The notes under the pieces are model-generated. The model made no database searches. It was not told where the DNA came from and saw only the letters and a program-made list of their open reading frames with translations. The translations under genes were made by a program, and so were the position numbers. Shown one piece after another: positions 1-33,274 of a stretch of DNA of 54,115 nt (position 1 is the stretch's first letter; the number at the start of each line of letters is the position of its first letter). The DNA lies in the IMG/VR virus record IMGVR_UViG_3300030419_000485, positions 1 through 54,115 of that record; one strand, 5' to 3'. Source of the DNA: a virus (lineage: Duplodnaviria; Caudoviricetes).

Positions 1-3000
1 ACGGAATTTGGCTTCGGCTTTTGCAAGCATCGGTTCATAGTTTTCTTCGACCGTTTCAATCTCTTGGTTGCTATCTCTAGCAATATTCCTAAGGCGATCT
101 TTAATAGTTCTTCTAAGATCACTAAGCTTGTACAATGATTCAGATACAGATCGGTCATCCTCAGGCAGTGCTTCGTCTGTTCTTAATTCAGCTGCCTCGG
201 GCTGTGTAAACGGAATAGTATAGGTTTCGCCTGTATCTCTATCTGTAACTACTACATCAGGAAGTGTTCTTTCTACACCCGGCTTATCTTGACGAATTTC
301 TCTAGAAACTTGCCTAGCCCGTTCTGCCTTATTAATAAAATCAAGAACTCCTCTTGTCTGGAACTCTTCACTTCGATTGATTGATAAGAATCCGGTCATT
401 GCATCTTTCATTCCCTGATCGGTAGCGATGACTTGATCTAAGATTACACGGTCATTGAAATCCTGACGCTCGTATAAAAGTTCCCCGAGTGCGATTATAT
501 TATCCGAAGTTACTGTAACTCCCATTTGCTCCGCTAAAGCCTTGACAGCAAGAGTACCCTTACCAAAAGGTTCGTTAATAAACTCTTGTCTAAAGTTGTC
601 AATACCACCACCATACATACGACGCATAACTGGGGGCTTAAATACATCTCGTAATCTACCAAGTACTGCCCTTTCTTCCCCACTTATATCGGTTCTATCC
701 TTCACAGCCTCAAAGTCTTTAGTACTTTTAATATCATACTTTCCAAGAAGATCGAAAGCTGCTTTAAGCGGACCCATTCTTTGAACTACTAAAGCATTTC
801 CATTAGCAGAAATTGCATCTGCCGCAGCTAAAGCACCCTTAATATAGAAGTCAGATTCTGAAATTGAAGATCTCTTAGAATTAAGAATGGTTGTTCTTAG
901 CCCATACTTTACTAAAGACTTATAGATGGTATTCGCTTCTTTATCTATATTGCCATTGTCATCCATAACCTCGATTGGCTGATTACCATAAGGGGTATTT
1001 GCAATATGCTTCCAATTATCTGAACCCGTAGTAGTCATAACCGCTAAAGTATTCAAGTGGTTTTCATGAATACCGCTATTAACTCTGTCATAGTAATTTG
1101 TCCTGTCATATAAGAACACATTAACTTCATCCAAAGTAATAGTTCTATCACCAATCACAACTTCTCCGTTGACAGTTACATCAAGGAATTGCTGTGGATT
1201 CATGTTAAACTCGTCCATAAGCCATTTGTTAGTGGACTCTATACTTGCTTCAATAATAGTTGATGCCATAGGAGCCATCTGTTCTGAAGCAAAAGCTTGG
1301 GCAATAACATCACCTGCGTAACCACGAGGAACAATAACCTCACTACCGGGACTAATAAATGGAATGTTTAGCTGATTTGCAAAGGATCTATTAAAACGAA
1401 TCCGACTATCTCTGGCTCCAGATAAACTGTCTTGGACAAACATCTGAGCAAGGTTTGGCAAGTCCATCATAAAATGCATTGCGAGATCAATAGCTTTTTC
1501 CCGGTCCAACAAGCCTTGCTCTAAGCTACCGCCTACCCATCGAGGAAAGATCATAAACTTAGTCATATCTTCAGATGGATCTGGGGTTCCTTCTTTGCGG
1601 AACTTTTTTCGCCACTCAGCCGCAGCGTCTCGTTGTTTTTGGCCCCAGTTTTTAACCGTAGGTCTGTCTAAATCCTTATCCCATTCAATATGCCTTAAAA
1701 CTTCTTTCTGTCTCTGATCAGTTTGCCACCTCATAATAATACGCTTTAAATCAAACGATCCTAAGGGGGCTGAGTGATTAATTCTTCCAGCAGCAGCAAC
1801 GAATTCAGGGTTGCCCTTTCTATCCATATCAGACTCTGTACCAATTAATCCGTGCTCTCCAGTAACAAGCTTGTCAGCTTGCACGGTGATTTTCTCAAAG
1901 GCAAAGTAATCTACAATAGCTCTACCAACTAAAGTGGCAGGAGCCCAATCAATAGTACCGTCACCGAACGAAGATAAAGTTACAACCCCAGAATCGCTAT
2001 CATCAGCAAAGACATCTAAGTTTTGCATAATTTTATTAAACGTCCTATCAATATTAATAGGCTCTCCGGGTACATACTCTATACCCAGTTTTTCCATGAT
2101 CTTTCTAGCACGGGGATGAGCTCTGCCGCCCTCCATAAATAACTGCTCTTCTAATCTTTCTCTAATAGACTGCTCAACAGTTTGTGTATATGTTTCTCTA
2201 CTTCTGGTAACTTGGGATCTATCGAAGAAACCAGTTTCCTCTCGAACATCTAAGACAAACCCAATCGTCCTTGCTTGGGATTTATTCCATTCTCTAGAGG
2301 CATCTTCTAAATCCTTTAATAATTCCACTGCTAATTCGAAGTTTGAAATTGAGTCAGGCTTAGTTTCACTGTCTAACTCTGACCTCATAATCTCTCCAAT
2401 AAGATTATCTAAAGTCTGAGCTCTAGCTCCTTCTAACTTTCTATACACCCTACCTCGATAAAGATCAATGATATCCATCACCTTTTCCAGATTATAACGC
2501 AATGATCCAGCGTTAATATGTCTTTCACCAATTTCCATCTCAAGACCAGCACCATCAAGAGCTGGCTCAAACAGCACAAAGGGGGCCAATCCAAGCTGCC
2601 AGAAATATTCAGGCATTGTTGAATATACTAATGCAGCGTGTACACTACCGTCGCTGTTTTTTGCAGTCGACTGAAGAAGAGCCTTAAGTCTAGAATTCCA
2701 TTCAGCCCAAGCTTCGGCTTCTTTGTTTATGTCTCTTCTGATTTTTTTAAGAGCTTCTCCCGGATTACTCTCATTCAATAGGTTATCCCAGTTTGTGTAG
2801 GGAAGGTTATCTAAATCAGCATCAGTAAGCTCAAGGAGCTGGGATTTGAGATGTTCTTGTAGATTTGCAGGAGCAACAAAAGACGTACGAGATCCTAGTT
2901 GCATGTCCTTAAGAAGCTCATTAATTAATGATTTTGTTTCCCCAACAATACCTCTAGCTTTCTGTAAAGGAATTGTTTTATTCAACCTTTTTGTTTTTTC

Positions 3001-6000
3001 TGTGTGATCTAAAGTATTATGATCAGCAACTTTCTTCTTCTTCCATTTAGAAATATCAGGAAGCAGTTGCATTAATTCCTTAACAGTAATACTACCCTCT
3101 GCTTCTAACTCATTCAATCTTTGTTCCGCACCCGCTATAACAATTTCAAAGTGCTTAGTGTCCTGTTGAATTTGATCAATAAGACTACGATGTGAGACGA
3201 CAGAGCTAAATGATACAACAGCCGACTGCTTAGCTCGTTCTTCTGAAAGCTTAGACAATTCCCTCTTATAATCTCTATGAACTTTTTCAAACTTCTTAAC
3301 AGAGGCTGTATGATTTTTGTAGTCATCCGTTTCCTTAAAGTCTTGTTCTACTTTAGTAGCGAGAGAATTAAAACTATTAATTAATTTTGTAAATGAAGAT
3401 CCTTTTTTTGACGATCCACCTGTCAATTTAGTCTCCGGATCTCCTTTTAATACTCTATTAATTTCATTCTTAATTGTCTGTCTGATCTTCGGATGGGTTG
3501 TTCCAGACTCTACTAATTCGAGTAGACTTTCTAGAGCGGAGATAACCCCCGGCATGTTATCTAAATCTTCAATTTTAATTGTTTTCTTAATCTTATCCGG
3601 CATTGGCTTTCCGGTTTCTGGATCTATTTCCATAAACGGAACAAGACGCAATGCACTTATTGGCCTTACCAATGCAAGATATTGGTCTACCTCATCACCC
3701 CCTGCTTCTTGAAAAGCTTTATAGGTTTCTAGAAGGCGTTTTCGTAATTCTATAACCTCATCACCTAAAGCTCTAACGACAGGATCAGGATTGAGCTGGG
3801 CTAAGAAAGCCTGCTTATCTATATTTAATTTCTCAAGCAAATCTTTAATTCTTCTTTTTGCCTTTTTGAAATCTGCAATCTTTTCGCGATGCAGCTTGAG
3901 CTTATCTTTTAACTCTCTTCTTCGTTTTAAGAGATCTTCTGAAACAGCATCCCTACCCTTGGTTTCTCTAGTCCTTCTAATTTGACCAAGAACCTCAGCC
4001 CTTTCGGTTTCTGTTTCAGCCATCTCCTCTGTTGCACGTCTCGAGTCTTCATCGATTTGATCTGATATTTCTTGAGCTGTCTGTTCAGCATCAACGCTCT
4101 GCGTTACAACATCGTTTGTTGGAGAACCTTCCTGTACCGCTTCTCCTGTAGTAGGAATTCCCGCAGCGGTAGCTTCTGCACGAACCTGATTAATAGTCTT
4201 AATAGCCTCGGCATCAACTTCGGTCTGTTTAGTCATTAACTCATGAGCATAATCTAAACCAGCATCAAACCGTTCTTTCTCAGTCGCATTATCCCAATCA
4301 ACTTTAGATCCATCCTTACGAGTAATCTGAGAATACTTCTTCTTTGTTCCACTTAATATATCAGGAGGTAAAAGTCTAGTCCATTGTTGTTTATCTTTAA
4401 TGTTCTGCACATATTGGGCAGAAGTAATGTGTGTGCCTGTTCTTGCGGATTCAGCAGCAGCTGCATTTTCCATATCTGAGATATGTTTGTTCCATCCCCG
4501 CATTTGGGTAATAACCCTATCGACATCAGGACCATGCTTTGCGGTCATCTTGTCGTGAAAGGTTCCTTGTAAGGTTGATAAAGTATGCTCTAAAAACTGA
4601 GCTGGAGATAACGAAAACTCTCCGTGAATTTGTAAAACCTCGTTCGATGTTTCTATTAATAAATCATGAAAGTCCGAATCATTTAACCCAGATAAATGTC
4701 TAATAGAAGACAGCCCAAGACTAAGCCTGTCAGATGCTCCTTCCCCAGCACCTCGGTTTATATCCGTTATGGCAGCTTGACCCAAGTCTAAGTTAAGTCT
4801 ACTAGCTCCGGACACACCATCTGCCGGAGAAGCGCTTAAGGTTCGGTTAATAATCCTATTTAATTCCCCACGCTTACGGGTAATCTCTCTAGTCTGTTTA
4901 ACATAGTCAGGGTGAGCTACGCTCTTCCAAAAATCTACCGTATTATTTATCCAGCCATCAGTTCCTTTTGCCTTAGCGTTATACCACTTCTTTGCTGTCC
5001 AAGCAATAGGCATAGTACCCGCACCCATAGCGGCACCAAAGGTAGGGTTAATAATAGGAGATAATAGGGATTCAAGTATTCCCTCGTCCTTAACCTTGCC
5101 CCAGTCAAAACCGTCCTGCAATCCCATATTCTGTTTTCGCCATTGGTTCCCGATTTCTGCCAAAGACCCAGTAATAGCACCCTCAGCCATATCCGAAACA
5201 CGATTCAGTGGCCACCGAATTATCCGACCCGCTTCTCTAAAATCCTTACCTGTTGCTTTTTTAATCCCCTTAGCTAGTAAGTGGGGTCCTACTCTTTCTG
5301 GAAGATAGTTTACCAATCTCCTAGTCATATCACCAGCAGCCATTAGTCTCTCACTAAGTCCAGCTTTACCTGTAATACTTCTAGCATTCTCCATTCTGTG
5401 TAATACGCCCATGAATCTTTTCATCCGCAAAGCTTGTTTAGCAGTCTTAGCAGCTAAAACGGAAGCTGTAAGAGTAGCTCCAGCAACAGCCCCAACACCT
5501 GTTAGAGTTAGACCGGCACTAATAACCATACTTGCAACTAAATCAGGATCGTTAATAATACCATTTATAGTTAGGTTTGATGCAAAATTCCACAACTGAT
5601 CCATATCAGTAGCAGTGGATGCCCAGTTTCCATAAGCCTGAGCAATTTCCATCTGTCTGGATGTGTTGGAAATAGTTCTAAAGAAATCATAAGGATTCTT
5701 TGTATTCTTAACTGTTTCTTTTAATACTGCTTCCCCACCTAACTGCATCGCAAAGAAATTATAATTATCGAAATCTTTTTCCTTAAATTCTACTAGTGCT
5801 TGGCTAGGTTTAAACGCATCTCCAAAATCGAGATTTAATAAATCCTCAACTCCGCTAGAAAAAGAATTAGCAACAGGTAAAGTTTGCTTATCAAAACCCG
5901 AAGAGAACATAGAGATTGCGTTCCACCTGCTAAAGTCTTTTGTTTCCCCTATCATTTCTCTAGCTCTAGATCCAACATCTAGCATCCCCCCGCCATCAAA

Positions 6001-6333
6001 CTTCAGTAAGTATGACAGGTCACTAGCTAAATCCTGTTTAAAAGGTACGTTATCTGTAGTCCAACCTCCCGCATAATCTCTACTCATCGCCTCGCTTTGG
6101 CTTCTCGCGAAAGGCATAAAACCAGTCATCTTTCGGTTTTGAGAAATCTCTTCCCCTCTATTCATATAGTAGCCGCCTACGTCTGGAGAGGATAACGACT
6201 CCGCGTGTTGCGGGCCCCACTCTAAAGAAGCCCAATGCTTCATATACTCCTTAGCGCGCTCTGCGTTCTGTCGAGATATATCTAAAGTATCTGGCTGCCA
6301 CGGGAGCGGATTACCAAAAAATTCTAAGGTCAT
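1..6333 (-). CDS. Giant internal virion/ejection protein (>2111 aa, 3' end outside window) with a putative single-subunit RNA polymerase domain (vRNAP-like)
   Basis: ATG at 6333 with AGGAG RBS (6341-6345). Manual translation (MTLEFFGNPLPWQPD...) stays open to base 1, and the ORF track lists no terminated ORF in this frame. Motifs: DSRIRF (D at 1410), YDRVNSGIHE (D at 1089), DFY (852-844), RDVFKPPVMRRMYGGG (starts 651). No Cys found in my manual read. Confidence 0.85.
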   Translation of the reverse strand, partial: MTLEFFGNPLPWQPDTLDISRQNAERAKEYMKHWASLEWGPQHAESLSSPDVGGYYMNRGEEISQNRKMTGFMPFARSQSEAMSRDYAGGWTTDNVPFKQDLASDLSYLLKFDGGGMLDVGSRAREMIGETKDFSRWNAISMFSSGFDKQTLPVANSFSSGVEDLLNLDFGDAFKPSQALVEFKEKDFDNYNFFAMQLGGEAVLKETVKNTKNPYDFFRTISNTSRQMEIAQAYGNWASTATDMDQLWNFASNLTINGIINDPDLVASMVISAGLTLTGVGAVAGATLTASVLAAKTAKQALRMKRFMGVLHRMENARSITGKAGLSERLMAAGDMTRRLVNYLPERVGPHLLAKGIKKATGKDFREAGRIIRWPLNRVSDMAEGAITGSLAEIGNQWRKQNMGLQDGFDWGKVKDEGILESLLSPIINPTFGAAMGAGTMPIAWTAKKWYNAKAKGTDGWINNTVDFWKSVAHPDYVKQTREITRKRGELNRIINRTLSASPADGVSGASRLNLDLGQAAITDINRGAGEGASDRLSLGLSSIRHLSGLNDSDFHDLLIETSNEVLQIHGEFSLSPAQFLEHTLSTLQGTFHDKMTAKHGPDVDRVITQMRGWNKHISDMENAAAAESARTGTHITSAQYVQNIKDKQQWTRLLPPDILSGTKKKYSQITRKDGSKVDWDNATEKERFDAGLDYAHELMTKQTEVDAEAIKTINQVRAEATAAGIPTTGEAVQEGSPTNDVVTQSVDAEQTAQEISDQIDEDSRRATEEMAETETERAEVLGQIRRTRETKGRDAVSEDLLKRRRELKDKLKLHREKIADFKKAKRRIKDLLEKLNIDKQAFLAQLNPDPVVRALGDEVIELRKRLLETYKAFQEAGGDEVDQYLALVRPISALRLVPFMEIDPETGKPMPDKIKKTIKIEDLDNMPGVISALESLLELVESGTTHPKIRQTIKNEINRVLKGDPETKLTGGSSKKGSSFTKLINSFNSLATKVEQDFKETDDYKNHTASVKKFEKVHRDYKRELSKLSEERAKQSAVVSFSSVVSHRSLIDQIQQDTKHFEIVIAGAEQRLNELEAEGSITVKELMQLLPDISKWKKKKVADHNTLDHTEKTKRLNKTIPLQKARGIVGETKSLINELLKDMQLGSRTSFVAPANLQEHLKSQLLELTDADLDNLPYTNWDNLLNESNPGEALKKIRRDINKEAEAWAEWNSRLKALLQSTAKNSDGSVHAALVYSTMPEYFWQLGLAPFVLFEPALDGAGLEMEIGERHINAGSLRYNLEKVMDIIDLYRGRVYRKLEGARAQTLDNLIGEIMRSELDSETKPDSISNFELAVELLKDLEDASREWNKSQARTIGFVLDVREETGFFDRSQVTRSRETYTQTVEQSIRERLEEQLFMEGGRAHPRARKIMEKLGIEYVPGEPINIDRTFNKIMQNLDVFADDSDSGVVTLSSFGDGTIDWAPATLVGRAIVDYFAFEKITVQADKLVTGEHGLIGTESDMDRKGNPEFVAAAGRINHSAPLGSFDLKRIIMRWQTDQRQKEVLRHIEWDKDLDRPTVKNWGQKQRDAAAEWRKKFRKEGTPDPSEDMTKFMIFPRWVGGSLEQGLLDREKAIDLAMHFMMDLPNLAQMFVQDSLSGARDSRIRFNRSFANQLNIPFISPGSEVIVPRGYAGDVIAQAFASEQMAPMASTIIEASIESTNKWLMDEFNMNPQQFLDVTVNGEVVIGDRTITLDEVNVFLYDRTNYYDRVNSGIHENHLNTLAVMTTTGSDNWKHIANTPYGNQPIEVMDDNGNIDKEANTIYKSLVKYGLRTTILNSKRSSISESDFYIKGALAAADAISANGNALVVQRMGPLKAAFDLLGKYDIKSTKDFEAVKDRTDISGEERAVLGRLRDVFKPPVMRRMYGGGIDNFRQEFINEPFGKGTLAVKALAEQMGVTVTSDNIIALGELLYERQDFNDRVILDQVIATDQGMKDAMTGFLSINRSEEFQTRGVLDFINKAERARQVSREIRQDKPGVERTLPDVVVTDRDTGETYTIPFTQPEAAELRTDEALPEDDRSVSESLYKLSDLRRTIKDRLRNIARDSNQEIETVEENYEPMLAKAEAKFR

Positions 6334-6372
6334 TTAATTTCTCCTGTTTTCAGTATAAGGTATTCTTTTCTA

Positions 6373-9300
6373 TTAGAATTTAGGAAAGGTATAGATGTAT
6401 GTTTCGGCGGACTCGCGTAAATATTCTAGTACGCCTTCTCTTCTTTGTTTAGTCCATTCAAGACCAACGGTTCCAATAGCTAATCCCTGCTCCTGTTGGT
6501 TACCTGAGGTTCCTGCTTCTCTCATGAGTCTAATTTCTACAGCAGCATCGCTGGCTGGTTTACCAGAATCAGGGGTAACATACCGGGGATAATAAAATAA
6601 CGCCACATCAACCAGATTATAAGGTTCTAGTTCAGCACTTGGGGTGTACATAGCTTCTTGCCTCTGCGGTATGGGTGGGGTAAGAAAGAACTGAAATTCC
6701 CCAATCTCAGAAAATCCCGGATAATCACCACTGGTAGCTAATCTATGAATAGCATTAACCATAAGACGGCCATGATCTAGTTTTAAAGCTTTAGCAAAAG
6801 TTGTGGGATTCTCTCTTCTAAATCGACTGTAATCAATGATAACACTACGCAAAGCTTGTTTGAAATTAGATTCAAATAGTCCAGCGTCTTGCTTGCTAGC
6901 AGCATGAAGTCTTCCAAATAAGCTTCCTCTTTTACTTAAAGCTATAGTCTTTGCAATAGCGTTATCAGCATCAGATACCTTAGTTGAAACAGGATCACCA
7001 ATGGTGGTTATATGGCCCTGTCTCTGAAGTGTGGTAAATTGGTTTTTATGATTAAAGGGAGTATCCTGTCCTACAAACGAATTCGGGTTTCTATCAAAAG
7101 CATCCTGTAACCCATTCCTATCAGGAATTAATCGCAGCCTGTTATCATCTCCCGGTAGAGATGCAGCACCACTGCCCTCAATGCTTGTTACGTTCATTCC
7201 TCTTAGTACAAGACTTGGCTCTATTGGTCCGTCTATAACAGTAGTTAAAACTTCTACCGCAGTCCTAGCCTCTGGGTGTTCACGCAGTAATCGAGTCATT
7301 CCTCTTATCACACCTAATTCTAACCACTCCCAATCTTGGCTAGTAAAATTAAACACACCCTCTACATGCCCAAAATCTTCGATCTCCCATTCCAAAGGTT
7401 TACCTTTTTTATCTTTGGGAAGATCAACTCCACTCTCATCAATCCATTGTATCATGCCCGGAGTAATATATCCCGCTTTCCATAACGATTGGAAATCATC
7501 AAGAATCTTTCGCTGACGCTCTTGTAACTGAACTATATCCGAATCTCTATCGTAAAACAATGGACTACTATAATCTGACGGTTGATGAATTACAATCCCC
7601 ATCTCACCAAGAGCCTCAACCATTTCATTTCTTTTCTCATTATCATTAGCTTCCGCGTAATCAATCCACGCACCTTCTCTAGCATAATCGGATAATCCCG
7701 GCATATGGGGTCTAGTTGATAAGGCTGTAAGATCATCTCTTTGTTTTCTAGTTATTTGATTAATAGGTTCTCCGCCGTTTAAAATAGTAGCTAACCCACT
7801 AAATATCTGTCTATGGGCATTTGAAAAACTTTGTAGGTGCGAAGCAAAATTTTGAATTTCTGTAGTCGGATCATTTTTTAAACCCATAACAAAAGCATTG
7901 TAATCATCATTCCGCTGCATTAAGAATTTACTAGTAACAGCAAACGCGTCTGCTCTTTCTCTAGAGATGCCGTGCTGAGAAAGTATATGAAGTCTGCGAT
8001 CAAAGCTACCCGGACCTTCGGTTGGATCAGTAAGATATCTCATAGTATTCCACGCAACAAACATAGGCAGCAAGTCAGCTTCCTCTCCTCGTTCTACCTT
8101 ATCTTGAATATACTGCGGATCTAAGTCTTGTAAGTTTCTTTGTATGTGTCCAATAATCTTACTTAACATCGGATCTGGAACTGCCTCTCCCTGCGCATTA
8201 ACCTTAGGCGAATTACCAGAAAGTTCCATTAAGGTTAAGACACTAGCCAAATGTCGTTGAGGATGTGTTTGTAAGTTATCAAGAGGGGCTAGTGAAAGAC
8301 GAGTCGACGAATGGGGTGGTATAGGTGGAAGAAGGGTCCATACATCTGCACCTTCGGGAAGAGAGATACCCTCTGGATGTAGTGCGTGGAAATGTTTAGA
8401 GTATATATCTTGAGCATGTGACCTAGCTTCATCCCAGATTCGCGTACCTTCTGCTGTCTCATATGCTTTATCGGTGCTGGTATTTCTGTCTAGGTTCCAA
8501 ATAATTGAAACATAATCCGTACCTTCCTTAGGATCAGCCGGGTCGGTTATTCCGAATCTTGTATTATTTAAACTACGTTCCATTTCAGCCAAGTGTCTAT
8601 GTAGACTAGACGTACTTGTTCCAGCATCGATTTGGTCCTTAAATGCATCGAACGACCTATTCCACGTAGTTAAATAAGCGTGTTGCTCAGATAGGGTATA
8701 TTGGTCTGGATTAAATATTACCCCAAAGATAAAAGATTTCGCCTCTTGGAATGTCTTAAAGTTCTGTCCCTTTATAGAAAAATTCATAGATCGTCTCATA
8801 TTTTCTTCAAAGAGATTAACCTTAAGTTGACCTTGACCGTAATTAGCGTTTGGGTCCAAGCTCACTGCTTCCCCAAGCGGACCCGTTTGGGATAATTGTG
8901 GAAGAGCCTCTGATAAATCGGCTGCCCGTGTATTACTCATGTCAGCTCCATATAATTGTGCCGACGCTTCTGATACTGATGGGGAATCGAATGCCATAGG
9001 AGAAAGCCAAGGCCAATGGATACCAGTAAAGATTGAAGTAGTGTTAGATAAACTCTTAACAGCCGATTGGAAGGCCTTTGTTATAACCTGTTCCTGATCA
9101 CTATCGTTCATAGACCCTATGATCATATCTCCCATCGACATAAAAGCTGAAGGGATAAGACCATGCTCTACTATTGAGCTTAGTCCTTCTTTTACTAATT
9201 CATTCCCCCGTCTCATTCCTCTTCCCATAGCACTATAAGCACCCTCGGTTACCACGTCATAAAATATATCGTAAAGTTCTTGCCATTCTTCTTCTGGTAA

Positions 9301-10590
9301 GAAAGAATAAATAGCTTCTGCCCAATTAAAGTCAATATTTTCTGGGGTAATTGTAACAGAAGCAACCGGAACGTCAGATAAAGGTGCTCGACGAGTAACC
9401 GCTGCTGGGTCTATTCCGGATTTTGCGGCCATTCTCCTATCAAATCTTTCAAATCCCTCATCTAGCTTTCTCGGAACACTTGCAATTTTATTTACAATCT
9501 TTCCTAATATCGTGCTATTCCACCATTCTTCAAAACCCTCAAAGGTTTTGGCCCAATTATAAACTTCCTTATTAATACCTACAGCCTTGTCTCCAATTGT
9601 GTTAGGAGCTCCCGTTTTTCTTTCCAATCCCTCAGACAATTCTGATGGTACGGAAAGCAAAGCATTTGGAATATCGTGAGTAAACCCCTGCCAGAGCTTA
9701 TCTATAGCATTACCAAGTTTGTCCATATAACCCGGAGGTTCATCAGAACCATTACCACTGTTAAGTATATAGTCAATACTTTCATTTCCTTCTGGAGTAA
9801 ACCATAAGAAGTGTTCATACACAGGACCGTTTAAAGTAGCTCCCACCCCCATATCTTTAGGTAATGAGAGCCGTAATAATTTATCTACTATCGGTCTTAC
9901 TTCTTCTTGGGAAAGGGCACTAAGAGGTAGGTCATCCATTTCTTCGAGAACAGACCACGCGGTTCTTGGGAATAAAGTATCTTGGTATGTGTCTAAGAAG
10001 TATAAACTTTCAGAAGTACCGTGGACTAGCTTTGAAAAATCAGATGGAAGACCGAACAACTCATGATCTAAATTAGTAAGCTCTCCACCACCGTTAATAT
10101 CAATAAGATTTCCGCCTAATGAAAAAGAATGACCCGGTACTTCTGCTCCAATATCAGTCATAAACTGAGGTACAGATCTGATATGAAAATCGGCTATGTC
10201 ATGCAAATCTTGACCCCCTGCTACGGTAGGATAATCTACTAAAGAAGAAGGATTAAGCTGAGCAGGCTTGGCTTTGTAATTATTATCTCCATCAACATTA
10301 GATTCAAAAGTACTAAGAGAAGAAGGAACTGGGGTGGCAAATAACTGCTCCTTGAAAAACTCAATAGGATATCCTTCCCGTGTAATTTCTTCAGGATCTG
10401 ACCAGATACCATTAGGATACCACCTTTCAACGGATCCGTCTGGTCTAGATACCAGTGAATGCACCCAGTGTTTATTTGCTTGGTTATTTTTTTCAGCACG
10501 CGGGTTATTGGGATCGGTATATGCTTTTTCAGCAGTAGGGATTTCACTATACGGTTGAATAAGAGAATCTAAATAAGATACAAAAGACAT
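6373..10590 (-). CDS. Large internal virion protein (gp15-like position), 1405 aa
   Basis: Long ORF with no Cys, lying in the putative ejection block. Function inferred from position and composition only. Confidence 0.6.
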   Translation of the reverse strand: MSFVSYLDSLIQPYSEIPTAEKAYTDPNNPRAEKNNQANKHWVHSLVSRPDGSVERWYPNGIWSDPEEITREGYPIEFFKEQLFATPVPSSLSTFESNVDGDNNYKAKPAQLNPSSLVDYPTVAGGQDLHDIADFHIRSVPQFMTDIGAEVPGHSFSLGGNLIDINGGGELTNLDHELFGLPSDFSKLVHGTSESLYFLDTYQDTLFPRTAWSVLEEMDDLPLSALSQEEVRPIVDKLLRLSLPKDMGVGATLNGPVYEHFLWFTPEGNESIDYILNSGNGSDEPPGYMDKLGNAIDKLWQGFTHDIPNALLSVPSELSEGLERKTGAPNTIGDKAVGINKEVYNWAKTFEGFEEWWNSTILGKIVNKIASVPRKLDEGFERFDRRMAAKSGIDPAAVTRRAPLSDVPVASVTITPENIDFNWAEAIYSFLPEEEWQELYDIFYDVVTEGAYSAMGRGMRRGNELVKEGLSSIVEHGLIPSAFMSMGDMIIGSMNDSDQEQVITKAFQSAVKSLSNTTSIFTGIHWPWLSPMAFDSPSVSEASAQLYGADMSNTRAADLSEALPQLSQTGPLGEAVSLDPNANYGQGQLKVNLFEENMRRSMNFSIKGQNFKTFQEAKSFIFGVIFNPDQYTLSEQHAYLTTWNRSFDAFKDQIDAGTSTSSLHRHLAEMERSLNNTRFGITDPADPKEGTDYVSIIWNLDRNTSTDKAYETAEGTRIWDEARSHAQDIYSKHFHALHPEGISLPEGADVWTLLPPIPPHSSTRLSLAPLDNLQTHPQRHLASVLTLMELSGNSPKVNAQGEAVPDPMLSKIIGHIQRNLQDLDPQYIQDKVERGEEADLLPMFVAWNTMRYLTDPTEGPGSFDRRLHILSQHGISRERADAFAVTSKFLMQRNDDYNAFVMGLKNDPTTEIQNFASHLQSFSNAHRQIFSGLATILNGGEPINQITRKQRDDLTALSTRPHMPGLSDYAREGAWIDYAEANDNEKRNEMVEALGEMGIVIHQPSDYSSPLFYDRDSDIVQLQERQRKILDDFQSLWKAGYITPGMIQWIDESGVDLPKDKKGKPLEWEIEDFGHVEGVFNFTSQDWEWLELGVIRGMTRLLREHPEARTAVEVLTTVIDGPIEPSLVLRGMNVTSIEGSGAASLPGDDNRLRLIPDRNGLQDAFDRNPNSFVGQDTPFNHKNQFTTLQRQGHITTIGDPVSTKVSDADNAIAKTIALSKRGSLFGRLHAASKQDAGLFESNFKQALRSVIIDYSRFRRENPTTFAKALKLDHGRLMVNAIHRLATSGDYPGFSEIGEFQFFLTPPIPQRQEAMYTPSAELEPYNLVDVALFYYPRYVTPDSGKPASDAAVEIRLMREAGTSGNQQEQGLAIGTVGLEWTKQRREGVLEYLRESAETYIYTFPKF

Positions 10591-11279
10591 CAGGCTAATC
10601 CCTCCTCATGGTAATATAGAGCAATCCATGGATTGTTTCTTTTCTTCTTTAAACCAGAGGTTACTGGCCTTGTTTCTGCAAGCGATGCTGGCGGACCTTT
10701 TAGAGAATGTGGTGAAACTTGCTGTGGTTTGACATTGATATCTGGAACCTCTGGACTTGGTGTGGGTTCATGCGGTTCTGTAGCTTCACCCGGATCATCA
10801 AATGTTGAGATACCCTCGTCCGGGCTGGGTGGACCCATCTCAGAGCTTTGGGAAGGAGAGTCCTCTTTCTTTCCCCCCTCTTCATCACCAAGGAGATTTG
10901 GATAAATACCCTTCTTAGCAAGCTCCTTTCGTAGTGCATCCCAATCCACATCCCCGTTTGGATCTTTAGGAATATCTATAATACGGCCATCCGGACCCCT
11001 ACTATTATTAATTACGTCAGCAGCCGCTTTTCCTACTGCTATTTGCTGCTGTAATTTCATTTGCTTTAGCTTCATAGACACATCAACAATATTCTTAAAA
11101 GCGTCAGCAGTGGTTTTTACAGTGTTTCTCAGATTTTGATAATAATTTGCAATAGAGTTATCATACTCTGGGGCTCTCATTGAAACACCACCCTCAATAA
11201 GAGGAGGCATAACTACATCTACTACCGGAGCCATTGGTGCGTTAATAGTAAACAAATCATTGCCCATCTGAGACATCAC
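10590..11279 (-). CDS. Hypothetical virion protein, 229 aa, with a Pro/Ser/Glu-rich disordered C-terminal half
   Basis: ORF track; overlaps both neighbours; no Cys. Confidence 0.6.
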   Translation of the reverse strand: MMSQMGNDLFTINAPMAPVVDVVMPPLIEGGVSMRAPEYDNSIANYYQNLRNTVKTTADAFKNIVDVSMKLKQMKLQQQIAVGKAAADVINNSRGPDGRIIDIPKDPNGDVDWDALRKELAKKGIYPNLLGDEEGGKKEDSPSQSSEMGPPSPDEGISTFDDPGEATEPHEPTPSPEVPDINVKPQQVSPHSLKGPPASLAETRPVTSGLKKKRNNPWIALYYHEEGLA

Positions 11280-12282
11280 TTATTCTCCTATGTGTTTTAT
11301 CAAATACATCAATTAATAATTCTTTATAATCCCCTAAAAGTTCTTTATAGGATTGGTATTGATCACCTCTGGATTTTATTATACTACCAATCATATTCAG
11401 TGTCAAGGCCCCTCCATCAGGAAACTGAGAATCTCTATCAATTAATGCGTTAGCAATAAATTCCTTAGGTGTAGAAGGGTCTGCCGCCCTATTGTAATCT
11501 ATATCTAGAGTTTGTTTTTCCTGTTTCCTTCGTCTCATTAGAGACATCTCATATCCATTTAAAATACTTTTCTTAGCTTGTGGACGAATATAGACCCTAT
11601 TCATTTTCAACTGTTCTATTCCAAGGTTACTTGAGGGTGGCATAGAAAATACGGGAGCATATCCTTCTGGCTGTGTTGAATCAGGTAATGATATCCTACC
11701 ATTGACAACTTTAACCCTATCAGCAATTCCCATATCTACAGTCAACATTAAATCATCTAAATGAGAATGATGAGATACATCTGTATCTAGGTCTGAAAAA
11801 TCTAATCCCGCAAAGATCTTTGTATGAACATCCACACTAGACCTTAATGCCCTATTAACATGTTTACTATCAACCGCCTGTTGTAAAACAGGAACTCTAT
11901 CTAAATATTCCCATGCATATGTCGGAAGTTGCCGAGCTTTGTTTTTTAATAAAGTCTCTTGTTCCTCAAAACTTCGACCTTGTAACTCCTTATCTAAATT
12001 ATCTAGATATTCTTTCCTAGCTCCCTCTTTTCCTAAGGGGTGTAATCTCTCTCGAGTTTCGTGATACTCGCTTGGATTAGCAGCTTCAAATTCTTGGGTA
12101 CCTACATTTCTTTCCCACAAACTAAATTTTTCATGGGGTTCAAGCATATGGTTTCTGGCTTCCCATTCTTGTGATTTACTGACAAATGATTGAGAATATA
12201 AATCATCTGCTTGGGTAGAGGGATTAGCTTCTGGGAGCAGTCCTGCCATGTTTCTTAAATCCTCATAGTTTGCCATTATCAT
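11257..12282 (-). CDS. Hypothetical virion protein, 341 aa
   Basis: ORF track; ATGA overlap with the upstream gene; no Cys. Confidence 0.6.
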   Translation of the reverse strand: MIMANYEDLRNMAGLLPEANPSTQADDLYSQSFVSKSQEWEARNHMLEPHEKFSLWERNVGTQEFEAANPSEYHETRERLHPLGKEGARKEYLDNLDKELQGRSFEEQETLLKNKARQLPTYAWEYLDRVPVLQQAVDSKHVNRALRSSVDVHTKIFAGLDFSDLDTDVSHHSHLDDLMLTVDMGIADRVKVVNGRISLPDSTQPEGYAPVFSMPPSSNLGIEQLKMNRVYIRPQAKKSILNGYEMSLMRRRKQEKQTLDIDYNRAADPSTPKEFIANALIDRDSQFPDGGALTLNMIGSIIKSRGDQYQSYKELLGDYKELLIDVFDKTHRRISDVSDGQ

Positions 12283-12986
12283 TGCCCTCCTAAACCTTGA
12301 AGATATCCTTGAAGCGCATCAGTCTGTCCTTCTAGAGCTTTTAGCTGCTTCTCCCCTAAATGTTGCTGCATTCCGGCGGAAACACCTGTCATAGCGCCTG
12401 ATACTAAGCCGGAAATTAGAGCGTTCTGCATAATAGAAGAATCTGATTGCTGGTATAGTTGACCGGGAATAAACTTCTCTTGATCCCGATAGCCAAAATC
12501 TCTCTTGGCTAAGGTTTGTTGCATCTGTCTGTCTGCACTTACTAATGCGTTGGAGAACTGCACCTTTCGAGATGTCATTCCCCGATTCGCGGTTTCTAAA
12601 GACTGTCTCAATAATGCTTGTGCGGTTCCGCTGTTTGGGTTTACATTTCTATTTAATAAAGAAGTCTGCAAGCTATCGTTTACCTTTTGGGACTGTCGTG
12701 AAAATTGTCCAGAGGCGTTGTCAAAATTATACCGTAACCAAAATTCCTGCTCACCTTTAGCTTTTGCCGCAGCTTTGCCTATCTTAACATTCTGCATCCA
12801 CTTTGCGGCATTCGCCTTAGCAATATTTCTATTTTTAATTTGGTTATTTAACTGTCGATTGTACTCTTGTTCTTCCCACTGTGCTCTTTGTATTGCATTT
12901 TGAGCTACCTGAGACTGTCCTCCTAAAATAGACGAGAAGAGCTGACTGCCTCCCATCATCAGTCCCATTGATATTGGATCAAACAT
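12279..12986 (-). CDS. Internal virion protein, gp14-like
   Basis: Start MFDPISMGLMMGG with AGGAGG RBS. Gly-rich hydrophobic N-terminus, Q/A-rich helical core and Gly-rich C-terminal segment, as in T7 gp14-type proteins. Confidence 0.6.
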   Translation of the reverse strand: MFDPISMGLMMGGSQLFSSILGGQSQVAQNAIQRAQWEEQEYNRQLNNQIKNRNIAKANAAKWMQNVKIGKAAAKAKGEQEFWLRYNFDNASGQFSRQSQKVNDSLQTSLLNRNVNPNSGTAQALLRQSLETANRGMTSRKVQFSNALVSADRQMQQTLAKRDFGYRDQEKFIPGQLYQQSDSSIMQNALISGLVSGAMTGVSAGMQQHLGEKQLKALEGQTDALQGYLQGLGGQ

Positions 12987-12997
12987 AAGAGTCCTCC

Positions 12998-14683
12998 TTA
13001 CCAGTAACGGGGCGTAGACCGCCACTTATTATTCACGTTTTGTCTTCTGTTTCTAGGCATGCCTTCATTTAAGGTAGCCCCAGAAACTTGGTTTCTCCAA
13101 AGCCCCATTCTTCGGTCATCATTTAGCCATGTATTAACAATAGCTGACCTCTCGGCCTGTTTGTTTTTTTCTATAATAACATCAACATCCTTTGAAAGCA
13201 TTCCCTCCCAATGATGTACCGTAGCCGCTAACACATCTACACGGTCATCCTTAGGAAGAGCACCTTTCTTATCAAAGATTCTTGTAATTTGCTTCTGGGT
13301 CTCTTCTTGACTAATAGCCTTTCGATCAAAGACTAAGCGATGAGAAGACATGACAGGTTCTAAATATTCTATGATCCTAGCTTCCTTGCGACCTGTAACT
13401 CTATAGTCTTCAATAGCTACTCGACCACATACCTCGGTTACAACCGGAGCAAGTAACTGGCAGTACATAGCATCACCGAAGTTACTTTCAACACAGATAT
13501 GGTTTACCCCATACTCATAAGCTAACTTAGCAATCTTCTTAAGGATCGGCTTTTCATACCCTCCGGGGTATCCAATCAATTCGTGAATGAATATATAACC
13601 ATTAGCGAACGACCCAACACAGACTGCTGTTTCATCCTCACCTCTACCACTAGGGTCTACATACATAACTCGTTGCATATAAGGGACATAGGTATCGGAT
13701 ACCCACATAGGTTCGTAGATCAAATCTCCCGATAATCCAAATGTTGGTACACCCTTCATTGGCTGTGACTTAGACCAGATCAGTTTCTCTGGACACACTT
13801 CGGGATTGACATCTATTACAATAAGATCAGATAAGCGAAGAGGATATTTCTCAAAGTCCGCGAGCGTGGTATCGAGCTTATAGTGCAGTGCGAAAAGTTT
13901 TGGCCCAATCTTTGCCATCCTTTCAAGAAGAACTTCTTCTGGAAATCGTTCTGGTTGTGTAGGTTTGTTAGGTTCAATGTTAAGACTCAAGATCCACTCA
14001 TCTACATCTTCCGTTTCAGCAATGTCATTCTTATCTGGCATGACTGCTGGAAACTTTGTTACTTTATACCCCACCTTTAGGTGATTATAAATTGAATCTT
14101 TAATCTGTGGAGTACCTAAGAAGATAACTCGGCCACCCACGTTCCTGATCTGTTCAAACTCAGCCACCTTATTAAGTAATTTCTCTCTAGCGTTAGCTGT
14201 CTCACAGTTGCCCTCGATCTCTACATCGTCAGCAATAACATAATCAGCATGAGAACCTGTGATCTGAGAAGAAATACCACGGGCAAAGCAAGACTTGTCC
14301 TGCCCAATCTTAGTCCTTGCTTCTACGTTGAATGCAAAGGCATTGTCCGTAGTATTATCCCCCGGACGCAGGTGTTCACAATAGGGAACAAGGTCCAGAA
14401 TCTTCCTCGTCATGCTGATAAACTCTGCTGCTTTGTTACCAGTTGCAGACACAACCATGATAGTTGCATTAGGATCGCGTAGGAGGAACCACGAGGCCAG
14501 ACAAGCCGTGATAACAGACTTTCCGAACCCGCGACCGGCTTGCAGTTGCATGTCTGTAGCGTAGTTCTGGAGCCTCTCAGCCATAGCGTACTGAGCAGCT
14601 GTTGGCTCCCCCAGACCTAGGTGCTTGAAGCAAGCCCATAGGTGATTCCGGAAGTCATCCAACATTTCTTGGGGTATCTTCAT
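12998..14683 (-). CDS. terL: Terminase large subunit (T7 gp19-like)
   Basis: QAGRGFGKS Walker A, IADDVE Walker B, LGTPQ motif, nuclease motifs YVDPSGRGEDET and DDRVDVLA. Confidence 0.95.
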   Translation of the reverse strand: MKIPQEMLDDFRNHLWACFKHLGLGEPTAAQYAMAERLQNYATDMQLQAGRGFGKSVITACLASWFLLRDPNATIMVVSATGNKAAEFISMTRKILDLVPYCEHLRPGDNTTDNAFAFNVEARTKIGQDKSCFARGISSQITGSHADYVIADDVEIEGNCETANAREKLLNKVAEFEQIRNVGGRVIFLGTPQIKDSIYNHLKVGYKVTKFPAVMPDKNDIAETEDVDEWILSLNIEPNKPTQPERFPEEVLLERMAKIGPKLFALHYKLDTTLADFEKYPLRLSDLIVIDVNPEVCPEKLIWSKSQPMKGVPTFGLSGDLIYEPMWVSDTYVPYMQRVMYVDPSGRGEDETAVCVGSFANGYIFIHELIGYPGGYEKPILKKIAKLAYEYGVNHICVESNFGDAMYCQLLAPVVTEVCGRVAIEDYRVTGRKEARIIEYLEPVMSSHRLVFDRKAISQEETQKQITRIFDKKGALPKDDRVDVLAATVHHWEGMLSKDVDVIIEKNKQAERSAIVNTWLNDDRRMGLWRNQVSGATLNEGMPRNRRQNVNNKWRSTPRYW

Positions 14684-23818: not shown

Positions 23819-24482
23819 TCCACGTTCTCCAATATCTGAATCTATCGGGGTCATTATAAGAACCACTTCTATTATGTATTGCCCTAAGCTTAGGAGTGCC
23901 TGATCCAAAAACTGTTCTTCGTTTATCATCAACATCGGCATTCTTGCCCTTAGCTGTATACAGAACCTCAAGTTCCTGTAGATATCGATCCGACTGCACA
24001 TCTCCTTGGACAATCATTTGATATTGACGAGCAGCCTGAGCCATAATAGCCCTCTGAACCACAGTATCCATATCCTTCCAAGCAATCTTAATAACCATTT
24101 CCACCCAATAGTCTACATTTTCCTTCCAAATATCTGTTTGGTCGGTAACATTAAACAAAAACTGAGTAGATCCATTGGTATCGTTAGTGGATCTTGCAAC
24201 GCCGATGATTCTATACCCATCATCATTATCATGATCTGATATTAACTCGCCAGAAAGGACATTTGATCCCAATTGAATCTGTCCCGGCTCACTAATATTA
24301 TATTTTTTATTATATTTATTATTAGCAAGGCCACGGAACTGGTAATCCGTAAGCATTCTATCAAGGACACCTCGACAAACGCCGGTATCAATACCGCCAA
24401 GATCATCAAGATTATCTACCGTGGATTCACCTGCCATCAAAAGCATGTGATTAATAGCATCAAGCTTAGATATCATACCCAT
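23811..24482 (-). CDS. Tail tubular protein A (gp11-like)
   Basis: SKLDAINHMLLMAGE N-terminal signature and AARQYQ motif; directly downstream of the capsid gene. Confidence 0.9.
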   Translation of the reverse strand: MGMISKLDAINHMLLMAGESTVDNLDDLGGIDTGVCRGVLDRMLTDYQFRGLANNKYNKKYNISEPGQIQLGSNVLSGELISDHDNDDGYRIIGVARSTNDTNGSTQFLFNVTDQTDIWKENVDYWVEMVIKIAWKDMDTVVQRAIMAQAARQYQMIVQGDVQSDRYLQELEVLYTAKGKNADVDDKRRTVFGSGTPKLRAIHNRSGSYNDPDRFRYWRTWNG

Positions 24483-33273: not shown

Positions 33274-33274
33274 G

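What the first reader, a model, noticed from the sequence alone, without database searches (positions are those of the whole stretch)
610..1410. Hidden RNA polymerase domain in a giant virion protein: an N4-vRNAP-like enzyme in a T7-like phage
Seen: the unlisted ORF <1..6333 encodes, in order, DSRIRF (D at aa 1642), YYDRVNSGIHE (D at aa 1749), DFY, and RDVFKPPVMRRMYGGG (R1895, K1899, Y1907). Established: single-subunit RNAPs carry T/DxxGR, motif A (T7 DGSCSGIQH), D-x-Y, and motif B Rx3Kx7YG (T7 RSVTKRSVMTLAYG). N4 vRNAP is such a domain embedded in a ~3500-aa Cys-free virion protein. Motif B here fits Rx3Kx7YG exactly. The DxRxR-to-motif A distance is 107 aa (T7 ~116). The A-to-B distance is 146 aa, longer than T7's ~90. 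Inference: an ejected virion RNAP occupying the gp16-like slot of a T7-type genome. Motif C is not in the 216 residues visible after motif B and presumably lies beyond the window edge.
Basis: partly seen in the sequence, partly recalled or inferred. Interest (0 to 1): 0.95.

Follow-up and report, generated by a model that had tools for sequence, protein, structure and literature searches.

The report
Probable virion RNA polymerase, T7-like phage
A cut-off gene at the end of this marine T7-like phage contig encodes the first 2,111 residues of a roughly 5,100-residue cysteine-free protein whose conserved core looks like the RNA polymerase that phage N4 injects into its host, an enzyme so far considered unique to N4-like phages.

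Summary
ORF 6333..1 (- strand) gives 2,111 aa with no Cys and is cut by the contig end. A 95.7%-identical protein of 5,112 aa (P0153) shows the full size.

About 24 distinct relatives exist, all giant and Cys-poor, from uncultured phages. Across 28 aligned rows, D1749 (DRxxSG), D1828-x-Y and R1895/K1899/Y1907 are invariant or nearly so.

Profile-profile comparison with 13 Schitoviridae mini-vRNAPs gives E 1.4e-4 and probability about 52%. About 30 decoy or unrelated comparisons scored 15-27; the N4-versus-T7 RNAP control gave E 2e-8. It pairs DFY with DLY and motif B with motif B.

A candidate motif C (GM[FY]D, D in 19 of 21) and an HExxH domain matching the N4 C-terminal domain lie beyond the window.

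Pfam, PHROGs and PDB sequence searches find nothing.

All 5 related contigs examined also carry a T7-type RNAP. My verdict is a probable (about 0.65), very divergent N4-type virion RNAP in the gp16 position of a T7-like phage. That makes it a new variant of a known kind.

The parts
1..6333 (-). 5' 41% of a giant gene: aa 1-2111 of a protein of about 5,100 aa, cut by the contig end
   Evidence: Open frame. 0 Cys. P0153 (5,112 aa) is 95.7% identical over aa 1-2111. Relatives have open frames of 4,559-5,183 aa.
6341..6345 (-). Shine-Dalgarno AGGAG, 7 nt before the ATG at 6333
   Evidence: Sequence read.
5014..6156 (-). N-terminal conserved domain (aa about 60-440)
   Evidence: phmmer matches to aa about 60-440 in the 10 full-length giant relatives that have an N-terminus. 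Conservation profile.
5449..5544 (-). Single Gly/Ala-rich hydrophobic segment (aa 264-295), a possible membrane-insertion element
   Evidence: Kyte-Doolittle scan. N4 vRNAP has a comparable Gly-rich segment at aa 118-141 in the same scan.
2764..4836 (-). Poorly conserved, highly charged linker (aa about 500-1190)
   Evidence: Conservation profile. KRED fraction 0.29-0.40 over aa 601-1200.
1..2763 (-). Start of the central conserved block (aa 1191-2111; it continues to about aa 3100 in P0153). This is the putative polymerase core.
   Evidence: 29 database relatives. hhalign against Schitoviridae mini-vRNAP gives E 1.4e-4, against decoy scores of 15-27.
1063..1089 (-). Motif A candidate DRVNSGIHE (aa 1749-1757)
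   Evidence: D 28/28, R1750 23/28, S1753 27/28, G1754 24/28, E1757 23/28.
844..852 (-). D-x-Y motif, DFY (aa 1828-1830)
   Evidence: D 28/28, Y 27/28. hhalign pairs it with the N4 DLY.
604..651 (-). Motif B (O-helix type) RDVFKPPVMRRMYGGG (aa 1895-1910)
   Evidence: R, K and Y 28/28; P1901 26/28; M1903 23/28; R1904 27/28. hhalign pairs it with the N4 RGIAKNPLTITIYGSG. A DNA pattern for it hit 13 places in IMG/VR, and all 13 lie in giant Cys-poor frames.
1393..1410 (-). Present but not a conserved motif.
   Evidence: D 8, R1644 7 and R1646 12 of about 27 rows.
6373..13025 (-). Four upstream genes of 248, 341, 229 and 1,405 aa with no family match. Candidate partner ejection proteins, by position only.
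   Evidence: ORF list. No PHROG or Pfam family above threshold.
44639..47083 (-). T7-type single-subunit RNA polymerase (814 aa), the phage's second, non-virion RNAP
   Evidence: phrog_414, E 1e-168. At most 28% identical to cultured Autographiviridae RNAPs.

Best explanation
The ORF is the N-terminal 41% of a protein of about 5,100 residues, almost free of cysteine. I take it to be an internal virion (ejection) protein of an uncultured marine T7-like podovirus.

Like N4 gp50, it would combine three parts. The first is an N-terminal domain with one Gly-rich hydrophobic segment. The second is a central single-subunit RNA polymerase core, very divergent but N4-like. In this core D1749 (DRxxSG) is motif A and D1828-x-Y is the conserved DxY. 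R1895, K1899 and Y1907 form the O-helix NTP-binding face, and a GM[FY]D hairpin near aa 2273 of the full-length protein is motif C. The third is a downstream HExxH domain followed by a long helical C-terminus.

Inferred mechanism: a few copies are packaged and pass unfolded through the tail, which would explain the lack of Cys. They help form the trans-envelope channel. On the cytoplasmic side they transcribe the first genes of the entering genome, including the phage's own T7-type RNAP, which then takes over. That is the N4 programme (vRNAP, then T7-like RNAPII).

Shown here: the motifs, their family-wide invariance, the specific profile similarity to N4 mini-vRNAP and to the N4 C-terminal domain, and the genome context. 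Inferred only: the fold, packaging, ejection, catalytic activity and promoter type.
For: 1. Invariance. The family is only about 25% identical overall. Its invariant residues between aa 1700 and 1920 are almost exactly those that define single-subunit RNAPs: D1749, S1753, D1828, Y1830, R1895, K1899 and Y1907.

2. Motif detail.
- D-x3-S-G matches T7 RNAP DGSCSG and N4 DGVTNG.
- K-x-P matches the Schitoviridae consensus.
- The R/K/M/Y spacing of i, i+4, i+8, i+12 is that of T7 RNAP (recalled).
- G at D+5 (24/28) stands where A-family DNA polymerases carry the steric-gate Glu (recalled).

3. hhalign of the family against 13 diverse Schitoviridae mini-vRNAPs.
- Score 47 to 55, E 7.8e-4 to 1.4e-4, probability 25 to 53%.
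- It always pairs DFY with DLY and motif B with motif B.
- About 30 reversed or unrelated comparisons scored 15.4-27.3.

4. A second, colinear hit. The family C-terminal block matches the N4 C-terminal domain at E 0.0025, score 43.2. That alignment pairs the family's AHExxH (13 of 14 long members) with the HExxH present in 13 of 13 Schitoviridae vRNAPs. PMC13434306 describes this motif as conserved in the C1 subdomain (passage).

5. Cys content. There are 0 Cys in the 2,111 aa. Of the 29 relatives, 26 have 0 Cys. All 13 Schitoviridae vRNAPs also have 0.

6. Spacing. DxY to motif B is 67 aa here and 56 aa in N4.

7. Context. The gene follows a small-to-large row of unknown genes after the structural module. 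All 5 related contigs have both the giant frame and a T7-type RNAP. One contig has that RNAP split 620 + 259 aa, as in N4 RNAPII.

8. Hardies et al. (PMC4819975, passages) already place the N4 vRNAP inside a homologue of T7 gp16 (IVP-D).
Against: - No sequence-to-profile method sees the relationship. Pfam, which holds four N4 vRNAP families, gave nothing for P0001, four giants or 17 family members, even at E up to 10. PHROGs gave nothing. PDB sequence searches, by phmmer and by family HMM, found no polymerase.
- The hhalign probability is only about 50%, and hhalign against T7-type RNAPs is at background (score 24).
- hhalign does not pair D1749 with the N4 motif A. It pairs N4 E-A-DG with a variable insert, which reads IEVDG in some members and is deleted in at least 5.
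- The residues before D1749 are polar, not an obvious beta-strand.
- The T/DxxGR arginine has no conserved counterpart.
- The motif C candidate is not invariant: D in 19 of 21, E in P0008 and Q in P0010. Two hhalign runs placed the N4 motif C at different family positions with near-zero confidence.
- No shared hairpin promoter motif was found in the early regions of the window and three relatives.
- The fold could not be predicted.
Confidence: 0.65

Rival explanations
1. The protein is a homologue of N4 vRNAP whose polymerase core no longer polymerises. On this view it is kept as a nucleic-acid- or NTP-binding module of the ejectosome, for example to grip or ratchet the entering DNA, while the phage relies on host RNAP plus its own T7-type RNAP, as T7 does.
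For: - The motif C candidate is not invariant.
- The T/DxxGR arginine is absent.
- The phage already encodes a complete T7-type RNAP near the genome's left end, as in T7.
- No N4-like hairpin promoter set was found.
Against: - The motif A Asp and the R/K/Y of motif B are invariant in 28 of 28 rows at about 25% overall identity. That is what purifying selection on catalysis would give.
- N4 also has a T7-like RNAP in addition to its vRNAP.
- The sigma-70-like promoter count in the early region is not above shuffles: 10 found against 11.3 +/- 3.2 expected.
Confidence: 0.15
2. The protein is an ordinary, very large gp16-type internal virion protein (channel, membrane and cell-wall functions only). 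On this view the polymerase-like motifs are a chance resemblance within some other conserved domain.
For: - No Pfam, PHROG or PDB sequence hit.
- hhalign probability is only about 50%.
- A single-sequence Rx3Kx7YG arises by chance in 1.2% of shuffles.
- Giant Cys-free helical proteins in other podophages have been called vRNAP on size alone (PMC10747016, passages).
Against: - Four colinear motifs fall on the family's invariant columns.
- The composite pattern occurs in 8 of 100,000 shuffles.
- The hhalign score of 53-55 compares with 15-27 for about 30 controls, and the same motif pairs are aligned each time.
- There is an independent colinear hit between the HExxH domains.
Confidence: 0.15
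3. The core is a polymerase of another kind: an A-family DNA polymerase or primase-like enzyme, or a two-barrel RNAP as in crAss-like or P23-45 phages.
For: Rx3Kx7YG also fits A-family DNA polymerases (recalled). Giant virion proteins with two-barrel RNAPs exist (abstract of 10.1101/2022.12.01.518664, from the listing).
Against: - hhalign against a PolA alignment of 7 sequences is at background (score 20.2).
- The N-F-G signature of PolA motif B is absent, and G rather than Glu stands at D+5 (the rule is recalled).
- No conserved DxDxD exists. P0008 and P0019 have none, and in the other 9 giants it sits at scattered positions.
Confidence: 0.05

Closest known systems
Phage N4 gp50 virion RNA polymerase (Schitoviridae vRNAP; mini-vRNAP core aa 998-2103)
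   Same: - A giant single polypeptide with no Cys.
- An N-terminal Gly-rich hydrophobic segment.
- A central block with Dx3[S/N]G, DxY and Rx3KxPx5[Y]..G in the same order, with similar DxY-to-B spacing (67 aa here, 56 aa in N4).
- A downstream HExxH domain.
- It is the last and largest gene of an ejection-protein row.
- It co-occurs with a T7-type RNAP.
- It is the only above-background profile-profile match.
   Different: - About 5,100 aa against about 3,500 aa.
- No hit to the four Pfam vRNAP families.
- No conserved T/DxxGR arginine.
- A-to-B is 146 aa against 107 aa. B to the candidate C is 378 aa against 285 aa.
- About 1,370 aa (against 280) lie between the candidate motif C and HExxH, including a conserved block of about 700 aa with no counterpart.
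- The surrounding genome is T7-like (tube A, nozzle, single-chain RNAP), not Schitoviridae-like.
Phage T7 gp16 (internal virion protein D)
   Same: It holds the same relative position: the largest and last gene of a row of internal or ejection proteins in a T7-type genome. Hardies et al. (PMC4819975) treat the N4 gp50 C-terminus as an IVP-D homologue.
   Different: T7 gp16 has about 1,300 aa, carries an N-terminal lytic transglycosylase and has no polymerase motifs (recalled). Here no muralytic domain was detected. The gene row also lies after the terminase gene rather than between nozzle and fibre. Sequence similarity to gp16 was not tested directly.
T7 RNA polymerase family (Pfam PF00940)
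   Same: Motif A, DxxxSGI, and motif B, KxxVMxxxYG, read almost as in T7 RNAP (recalled sequence). The window's own T7-type RNAP is at 44639-47083.
   Different: There is no HMM match, and hhalign is at background (score 24.3, E 0.21). The N4 family against the T7 family gives E 2e-8 in the same test.
Alteromonas phages AltAD45-P1 to P4, split vRNAP-like pair (PMC3821669)
   Same: A non-canonical vRNAP arrangement in a marine podovirus outside the classical N4 layout.
   Different: Those proteins are BLASTP-detectable relatives of N4 gp50 split into two ORFs, and one of them has Cys (passages). The present family is undetectable by BLAST or HMM and is a single chain.
Stenotrophomonas phage StenR_269 putative vRNAP (PMC10747016)
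   Same: A giant, Cys-free, helical protein in a non-N4 podophage, proposed to be a vRNAP.
   Different: That proposal rests on size, Cys absence and helicity only (passages). No polymerase motifs were reported in the passages I saw. Relatedness to the present family was not tested.

Membership tests
N4-type virion RNA polymerase (Schitoviridae gp50) | Match to the Pfam vRNAP domain families (PF21769, PF21894, PF21624, PF21867, carried by all 120 listed N4 relatives) | tested here: not met
   No such family for P0001 at E up to 1. None for P0008, P0009, P0017 or P0019 at E up to 0.1. None for any of the 17 members of A2 at E up to 10.
N4-type virion RNA polymerase (Schitoviridae gp50) | Motif A catalytic Asp (N4 D1556 in E-x-DG-x-TNG) | tested here: inconclusive
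   D1749 in DRxxSG is invariant, 28/28, and fits Dx3[S/N]G. However, hhalign pairs the N4 motif A with a non-conserved insert instead.
N4-type virion RNA polymerase (Schitoviridae gp50) | Motif B Rx3Kx7[YF] with K-x-P | tested here: met
   R1895, K1899 and Y1907 are 28/28 and P1901 is 26/28. hhalign aligns it to the N4 motif B in every run.
N4-type virion RNA polymerase (Schitoviridae gp50) | Motif C Asp ([FH]-D-[GA]) | tested here: inconclusive
   It lies outside the window. The candidate G-M-[FYL]-D is at P0153 aa 2270-2273. That column is D in 19 of 21 rows, E in one and Q in one. hhalign placement is inconsistent.
N4-type virion RNA polymerase (Schitoviridae gp50) | T/DxxGR motif (conserved Arg) | tested here: not met
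   DSRIRF and TLVGR are not conserved: R1644 7, R1646 12 and R1471 4 of about 27 rows.
N4-type virion RNA polymerase (Schitoviridae gp50) | Giant single chain without cysteine | tested here: met
   0 Cys in 2,111 aa. 1 Cys in the 5,112 aa of P0153. 26 of 29 relatives have 0. All 13 Schitoviridae vRNAPs have 0.
N4-type virion RNA polymerase (Schitoviridae gp50) | Conserved HExxH domain after the polymerase (CTD subdomain C1) | tested here: met
   It lies outside the window. AHExxH is present in 13 of 14 long family members, and hhalign aligns it to the N4 HExxH at E 0.0025. A weak SprT-like hit, E 0.004, occurs in P0017.
N4-type virion RNA polymerase (Schitoviridae gp50) | Significant profile-profile similarity of the core to mini-vRNAP | tested here: inconclusive
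   E 1.4e-4, probability 52%, score 53-55. Controls scored 15-27. The N4-versus-T7 positive control gave 95%, E 2e-8.
N4-type virion RNA polymerase (Schitoviridae gp50) | Right-hand polymerase fold (palm, fingers, thumb) | not testable with these tools
N4-type virion RNA polymerase (Schitoviridae gp50) | Packaged in the virion, ejected, and transcribes early genes from hairpin promoters | not testable with these tools
   The virus is uncultured. The hairpin scan of early regions gave no shared motif.
T7-type single-subunit RNAP (PF00940) | Family HMM or profile match | tested here: not met
   No Pfam hit. hhalign against 10 T7-type RNAPs scored 24.3, E 0.21, equal to the reversed control.
A-family DNA polymerase (PF00476) | Profile match and PolA motif details | tested here: not met
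   hhalign scored 20.2, E 0.29. G rather than E stands at D+5, and motif B has no N-F-G.
Two-barrel virion RNAPs (crAss-like gp66, P23-45 TMP) | Conserved DxDxD metal-binding motif | tested here: not met
   No positionally conserved DxDxD in 11 full-length giants, and none at all in 2 of them.
T7 gp16 / IVP-D ejection protein | Sequence similarity to IVP-D; largest gene of the internal-protein row | not tested
   The position is consistent. PHROGs gave no internal-virion-protein family. No direct profile comparison with gp16 was run.

The most novel reading that the evidence does not exclude
An uncultured marine clade of T7-like podoviruses, with genomes of about 63-82 kb, packages and injects an active RNA polymerase of about 5,100 residues. 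This enzyme starts transcription of the entering genome before the phage's own T7-type RNAP is made. If so, the N4 strategy of a virion RNAP fused into the gp16/IVP-D ejection protein is not a Schitoviridae invention. It would predate the N4/T7 split, or have moved between the lineages, and these phages could infect without needing host RNA polymerase at any stage.
Probability: 0.45. Interest if true: 0.85.

Novelty: new variant of a known kind. Interest (0 to 1): 0.7.

Why it matters
Recent structural papers describe the virion RNA polymerase as the hallmark of Schitoviridae, 'unique to this family' (PMC13434306, passage).

A second, sequence-unrecognisable family of such enzymes, in phages whose structural and replication modules are T7-like, would have several consequences:
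- It would widen the distribution of injected polymerases.
- It would give a natural intermediate for asking how gp16-type ejection proteins acquired cytoplasmic enzymes.
- It would add a deeply divergent single-subunit RNAP for comparative enzymology and promoter discovery.
- It would flag about 5,000-residue 'hypothetical' ORFs in marine viromes as functional enzymes.

It also shows that current Pfam and PHROG models miss this family entirely.

Tried and rejected
Searches that found nothing:
- Direct searches with P0001. These covered PDB sequences, PHROGs, Pfam, tblastn against 50,697 phage records, and the word-indexed protein search of aa 1300-2111.
- The search for related loci with the single protein. 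There were 4 pattern matches and none was confirmed.
- The family HMM against PDB sequences. The top hits were a kinase and NqrC at E above 0.1.
- The HExxH-region HMM against PDB. The top hit was HtpX at E 0.5, not significant.
- Pfam over the 17 family members at E up to 10. No polymerase family appeared.

Comparisons that were uninformative or weaker:
- Full-length family against full-length N4 by hhalign was noisy and gave nothing usable.
- The N-terminal domain and the middle block (aa 2350-3150) against the N4 N-terminal domain, mini-vRNAP and C-terminal domain were at background.
- The merged N4+T7 profile scored lower than N4 alone (E 0.0016).

Promoters:
- Sigma-70-like sites in the early region were not enriched, 10 against 11.3 +/- 3.2.
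- Direct repeats gave no obvious phage promoter family.
- 3-nt-loop hairpins exist in the window's early region, but no motif is shared with three relatives. I did not pursue this further.

Ideas I rejected:
- DSRIRF or TLVGR as T/DxxGR.
- 'IEVDG' as the family's motif A, because it is deleted in at least 5 members.
- A two-barrel RNAP.
- PolA.

Literature:
- Two searches returned no paper reporting polymerase motifs in a giant virion protein of a T7-type, RNAP-encoding phage.
- Only passages of PMC4819975, PMC3821669, PMC13434306, PMC13492108 and PMC10747016 were read.
- Supplements were not seen.
- PMC10654107, on hidden N4-like viruses, was seen in the listing only, so its data set may or may not touch this clade.
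- Kazmierczak 2002 and all T7 residue numbers are recalled, not read.


Full report
THE OBSERVATION

All genes of the 54,115-bp window lie on the - strand. The window is a whole IMG/VR record, rated 81% complete.

The frame 6333..1 starts with ATG, preceded by AGGAG at a 7-nt distance. It runs 2,111 codons to the contig edge. Every motif of the finding is at the stated residue, and window 610-1410 corresponds to aa 1642-1908. The protein has no cysteine.

By shuffling, Rx3Kx7YG alone is a 1.2% event (236 of 20,000). A post-hoc composite of motif A, DxY and motif B occurs in 8 of 100,000 shuffles.

THE GENOME

PHROGs and Pfam identify the following:
- a T7-type RNAP (44639-47083)
- primase-helicase
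- PolA
- exonuclease
- ribonucleotide reductase
- portal
- scaffold
- major capsid protein
- tubular tail A
- a 1,749-aa nozzle protein
- a tail spike
- large terminase

After these come four unknown genes of 248, 341, 229 and 1,405 aa, and then the giant ORF.

The RNAP and the portal are at most 28% and 33% identical to cultured Autographiviridae-type phages with genomes of about 40 kb. This is therefore a deep, uncultured branch of T7-like podoviruses. One relative's source name points to a marine sample.

THE FAMILY

The exhaustive HMMER scan with aa 1301-2111 found 29 proteins at E up to 1e-3. Twelve of them have 2,554-5,694 aa. Twenty-six of the 29 have no Cys.

Similarity falls into an N-terminal block (aa about 60-440) and a central block starting near aa 1190.

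A profile search then returned P0153 (5,112 aa). It is 95.7% identical and colinear with all 2,111 residues, so it serves as a stand-in for the missing C-terminus. Its 66.7-kb contig size fits the CheckV estimate.

A degenerate DNA pattern for motif B hit 13 IMG/VR contigs. All 13 hits lie in giant, Cys-poor open frames. A relaxed, corrected pattern added 3 more.

In the 5 related contigs I examined (58-82 kb), the giant frame is 4,559-5,183 aa. All 5 also carry a T7-type RNAP and a PolA.

CONSERVATION

I aligned 28 rows, which are 24 distinct sequences because four pairs are near-identical. The invariant or near-invariant residues of the central block are:
- G1358, G1457, G1459, D1475, R1541, P1597, D1635, G1663 and P1669
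- D1749, S1753, D1828, Y1830, R1895, K1899, P1901, R1904, Y1907 and F1918

The last ten coincide with motif A (Dx3SG), the DxY motif and the O-helix motif B of single-subunit RNAPs.

G1908 of 'YG' is kept in only 10 of 28 rows. The family consensus is Rx3KxPxMRxxYx[GA]G. This resembles the variable YGSG, YSGG and YNAG endings of the 13 Schitoviridae vRNAPs I aligned.

COMPARISON WITH KNOWN POLYMERASES

Sequence-to-profile methods find nothing.

Profile-profile comparison (hhalign, no secondary structure) of the family against 13 diverse Schitoviridae mini-vRNAP regions gave the following:

| Family set | Score | E-value | Probability |
|---|---|---|---|
| 15 sequences | 47.3 | 7.8e-4 | 24.9% |
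| 23 sequences | 55.3 | 1.4e-4 | 52.6% |
| 28 rows | 53.0 | 2.5e-4 | 42.7% |
| trimmed core | 52.8 | 1.4e-4 | 52.4% |

A profile-versus-single-N4 run already picked the same stretch (E 0.065). Each run pairs the family's DFY with the N4 DLY, and motif B with motif B.

Controls:
- Reversed alignments, the N4 N- and C-terminal regions, T7-type RNAPs and PolA scored 15.4-27.3.
- The true remote pair, the N4 family against the T7 family, scored 82.6 (E 2e-8, 95%).

So the signal is specific to N4-type vRNAP and well above background. It is weaker than the known N4-T7 relationship and is not decisive alone.

WEAK POINTS OF THE ALIGNMENT

hhalign does not place D1749 on the N4 motif A. It uses an 'IEVDG'-like insert that at least 5 family members lack.

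I still favour D1749 as motif A, for two reasons. It is invariant, and DRxxSGI reads like T7 DGSCSGI and N4 DGVTNG.

The alignment beyond motif B has near-zero confidence, and two runs disagree.

BEYOND THE WINDOW

No conserved acidic column occurs in the 216 residues after motif B that the window holds.

In the full-length proteins the best motif C candidate is G-M-[FYL]-D-x-x-[DE]-x-P, at P0153 aa 2270-2276, which is 378 aa after R1895. The first acid is D in 19 of 21 rows, E in P0008 and Q in P0010.

Further on, 13 of 14 long members carry AHExxH (P0153 aa 3641). All 13 Schitoviridae vRNAPs carry HExxH about 280 aa after their motif C.

hhalign of the two C-terminal blocks aligns these motifs at E 0.0025, score 43.2. 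The other 17 comparisons of that batch scored 15-27.

PMC13434306 describes this HExxH as conserved in the C1 subdomain of the N4 C-terminal domain (passage). This is a second, colinear and independent link to N4 gp50.

Both proteins also have a single Gly-rich hydrophobic segment near the N-terminus.

MECHANISM

Known background, from passages only:
- N4 gp50 is the third ejection protein, analogous to T7 gp16, and transcribes the early genes, including those of the T7-like RNAPII (PMC13434306).
- The N4 polymerase is embedded in an IVP-D homologue (PMC4819975).

On that basis I infer that this protein is packaged, ejected unfolded, and acts as the first RNAP on the entering genome, upstream of the phage's T7-type RNAP. 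None of these steps is shown here.

The scans for hairpin promoters and sigma-70 sites were uninformative.

WHAT COULD NOT BE DONE

- Structure prediction, and therefore fold search, was unavailable.
- My mistyped pattern wasted the single metagenome scan.

VERDICT

It is wrong on the T/DxxGR assignment.

I put the best explanation at 0.65. The thing is a new, sequence-unrecognisable variant of a known kind of enzyme, in a lineage where it has not been described in the papers I could search.

Noticed in passing
window 33046-33210: Four tandem 33-nt units lie inside ORF 32563-33300 (-). That means 11-residue repeats in a 245-aa protein with no PHROG match.
   Followed up: no
window 18764-24013 (-): The nozzle (tubular tail B) gene encodes 1,749 aa, but the Pfam Phage_nozzle and phrog_457 matches cover only aa about 1181-1741. 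An N-terminal extension of about 1,180 aa is unexplained.
   Followed up: no
relative G003 (82,250 bp, CheckV 100%), G003:C1:39651-40737: The T7-type RNAP lies in two adjacent frames of 620 and 259 aa, reminiscent of the two-subunit N4 RNAPII. This contig also has a 4,731-aa giant frame.
   Followed up: partly
window 52411-52425, 51824-51836, 51681-51695 (- strand): Intergenic hairpins with 3-nt loops occur in the early region: GGGAGC-AAA-GCTCCC, GTTGC-AAA-GCAAC and GTATCC-CTT-GGATAC. N4 vRNAP promoters are small hairpins (recalled), but no motif shared with three relatives was found.
   Followed up: partly
P0153 aa about 3641 (outside the window); L018:4773-6422 and other loci: A conserved AHExxH...EFIA zincin-like domain is present in the giant proteins. 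There are weak SprT-like (E 0.004) and phage-metallopeptidase (E 0.052) hits, and it aligns with the HExxH of the N4 vRNAP C-terminal domain.
   Followed up: partly
P0153 aa about 2400-3100 (outside the window): A conserved block of about 700 aa lies between the candidate motif C and the HExxH domain. It has no counterpart in N4 gp50 and no family match.
   Followed up: partly
window 26992-28695 and 28910-30589 (-): Two genes of 567 and 559 aa sit between portal and scaffold. The first has weak disaggregatase-repeat and Laminin_G_3 hits; the second has none. This is an unusual place for such genes in a T7-type layout.
   Followed up: no
window 33580-35493 and 36236-36958 (-): A ribonucleotide reductase (phrog_367, E 3.5e-171) and a dNMP kinase lie in the replication module of this T7-like phage.
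   Followed up: no
P0003 aa 1181, P0004 aa 1160, P0014 aa 1160: Some family members carry a second HExxH (HELGH or HEVGH) in the otherwise variable region before the central block.
   Followed up: no
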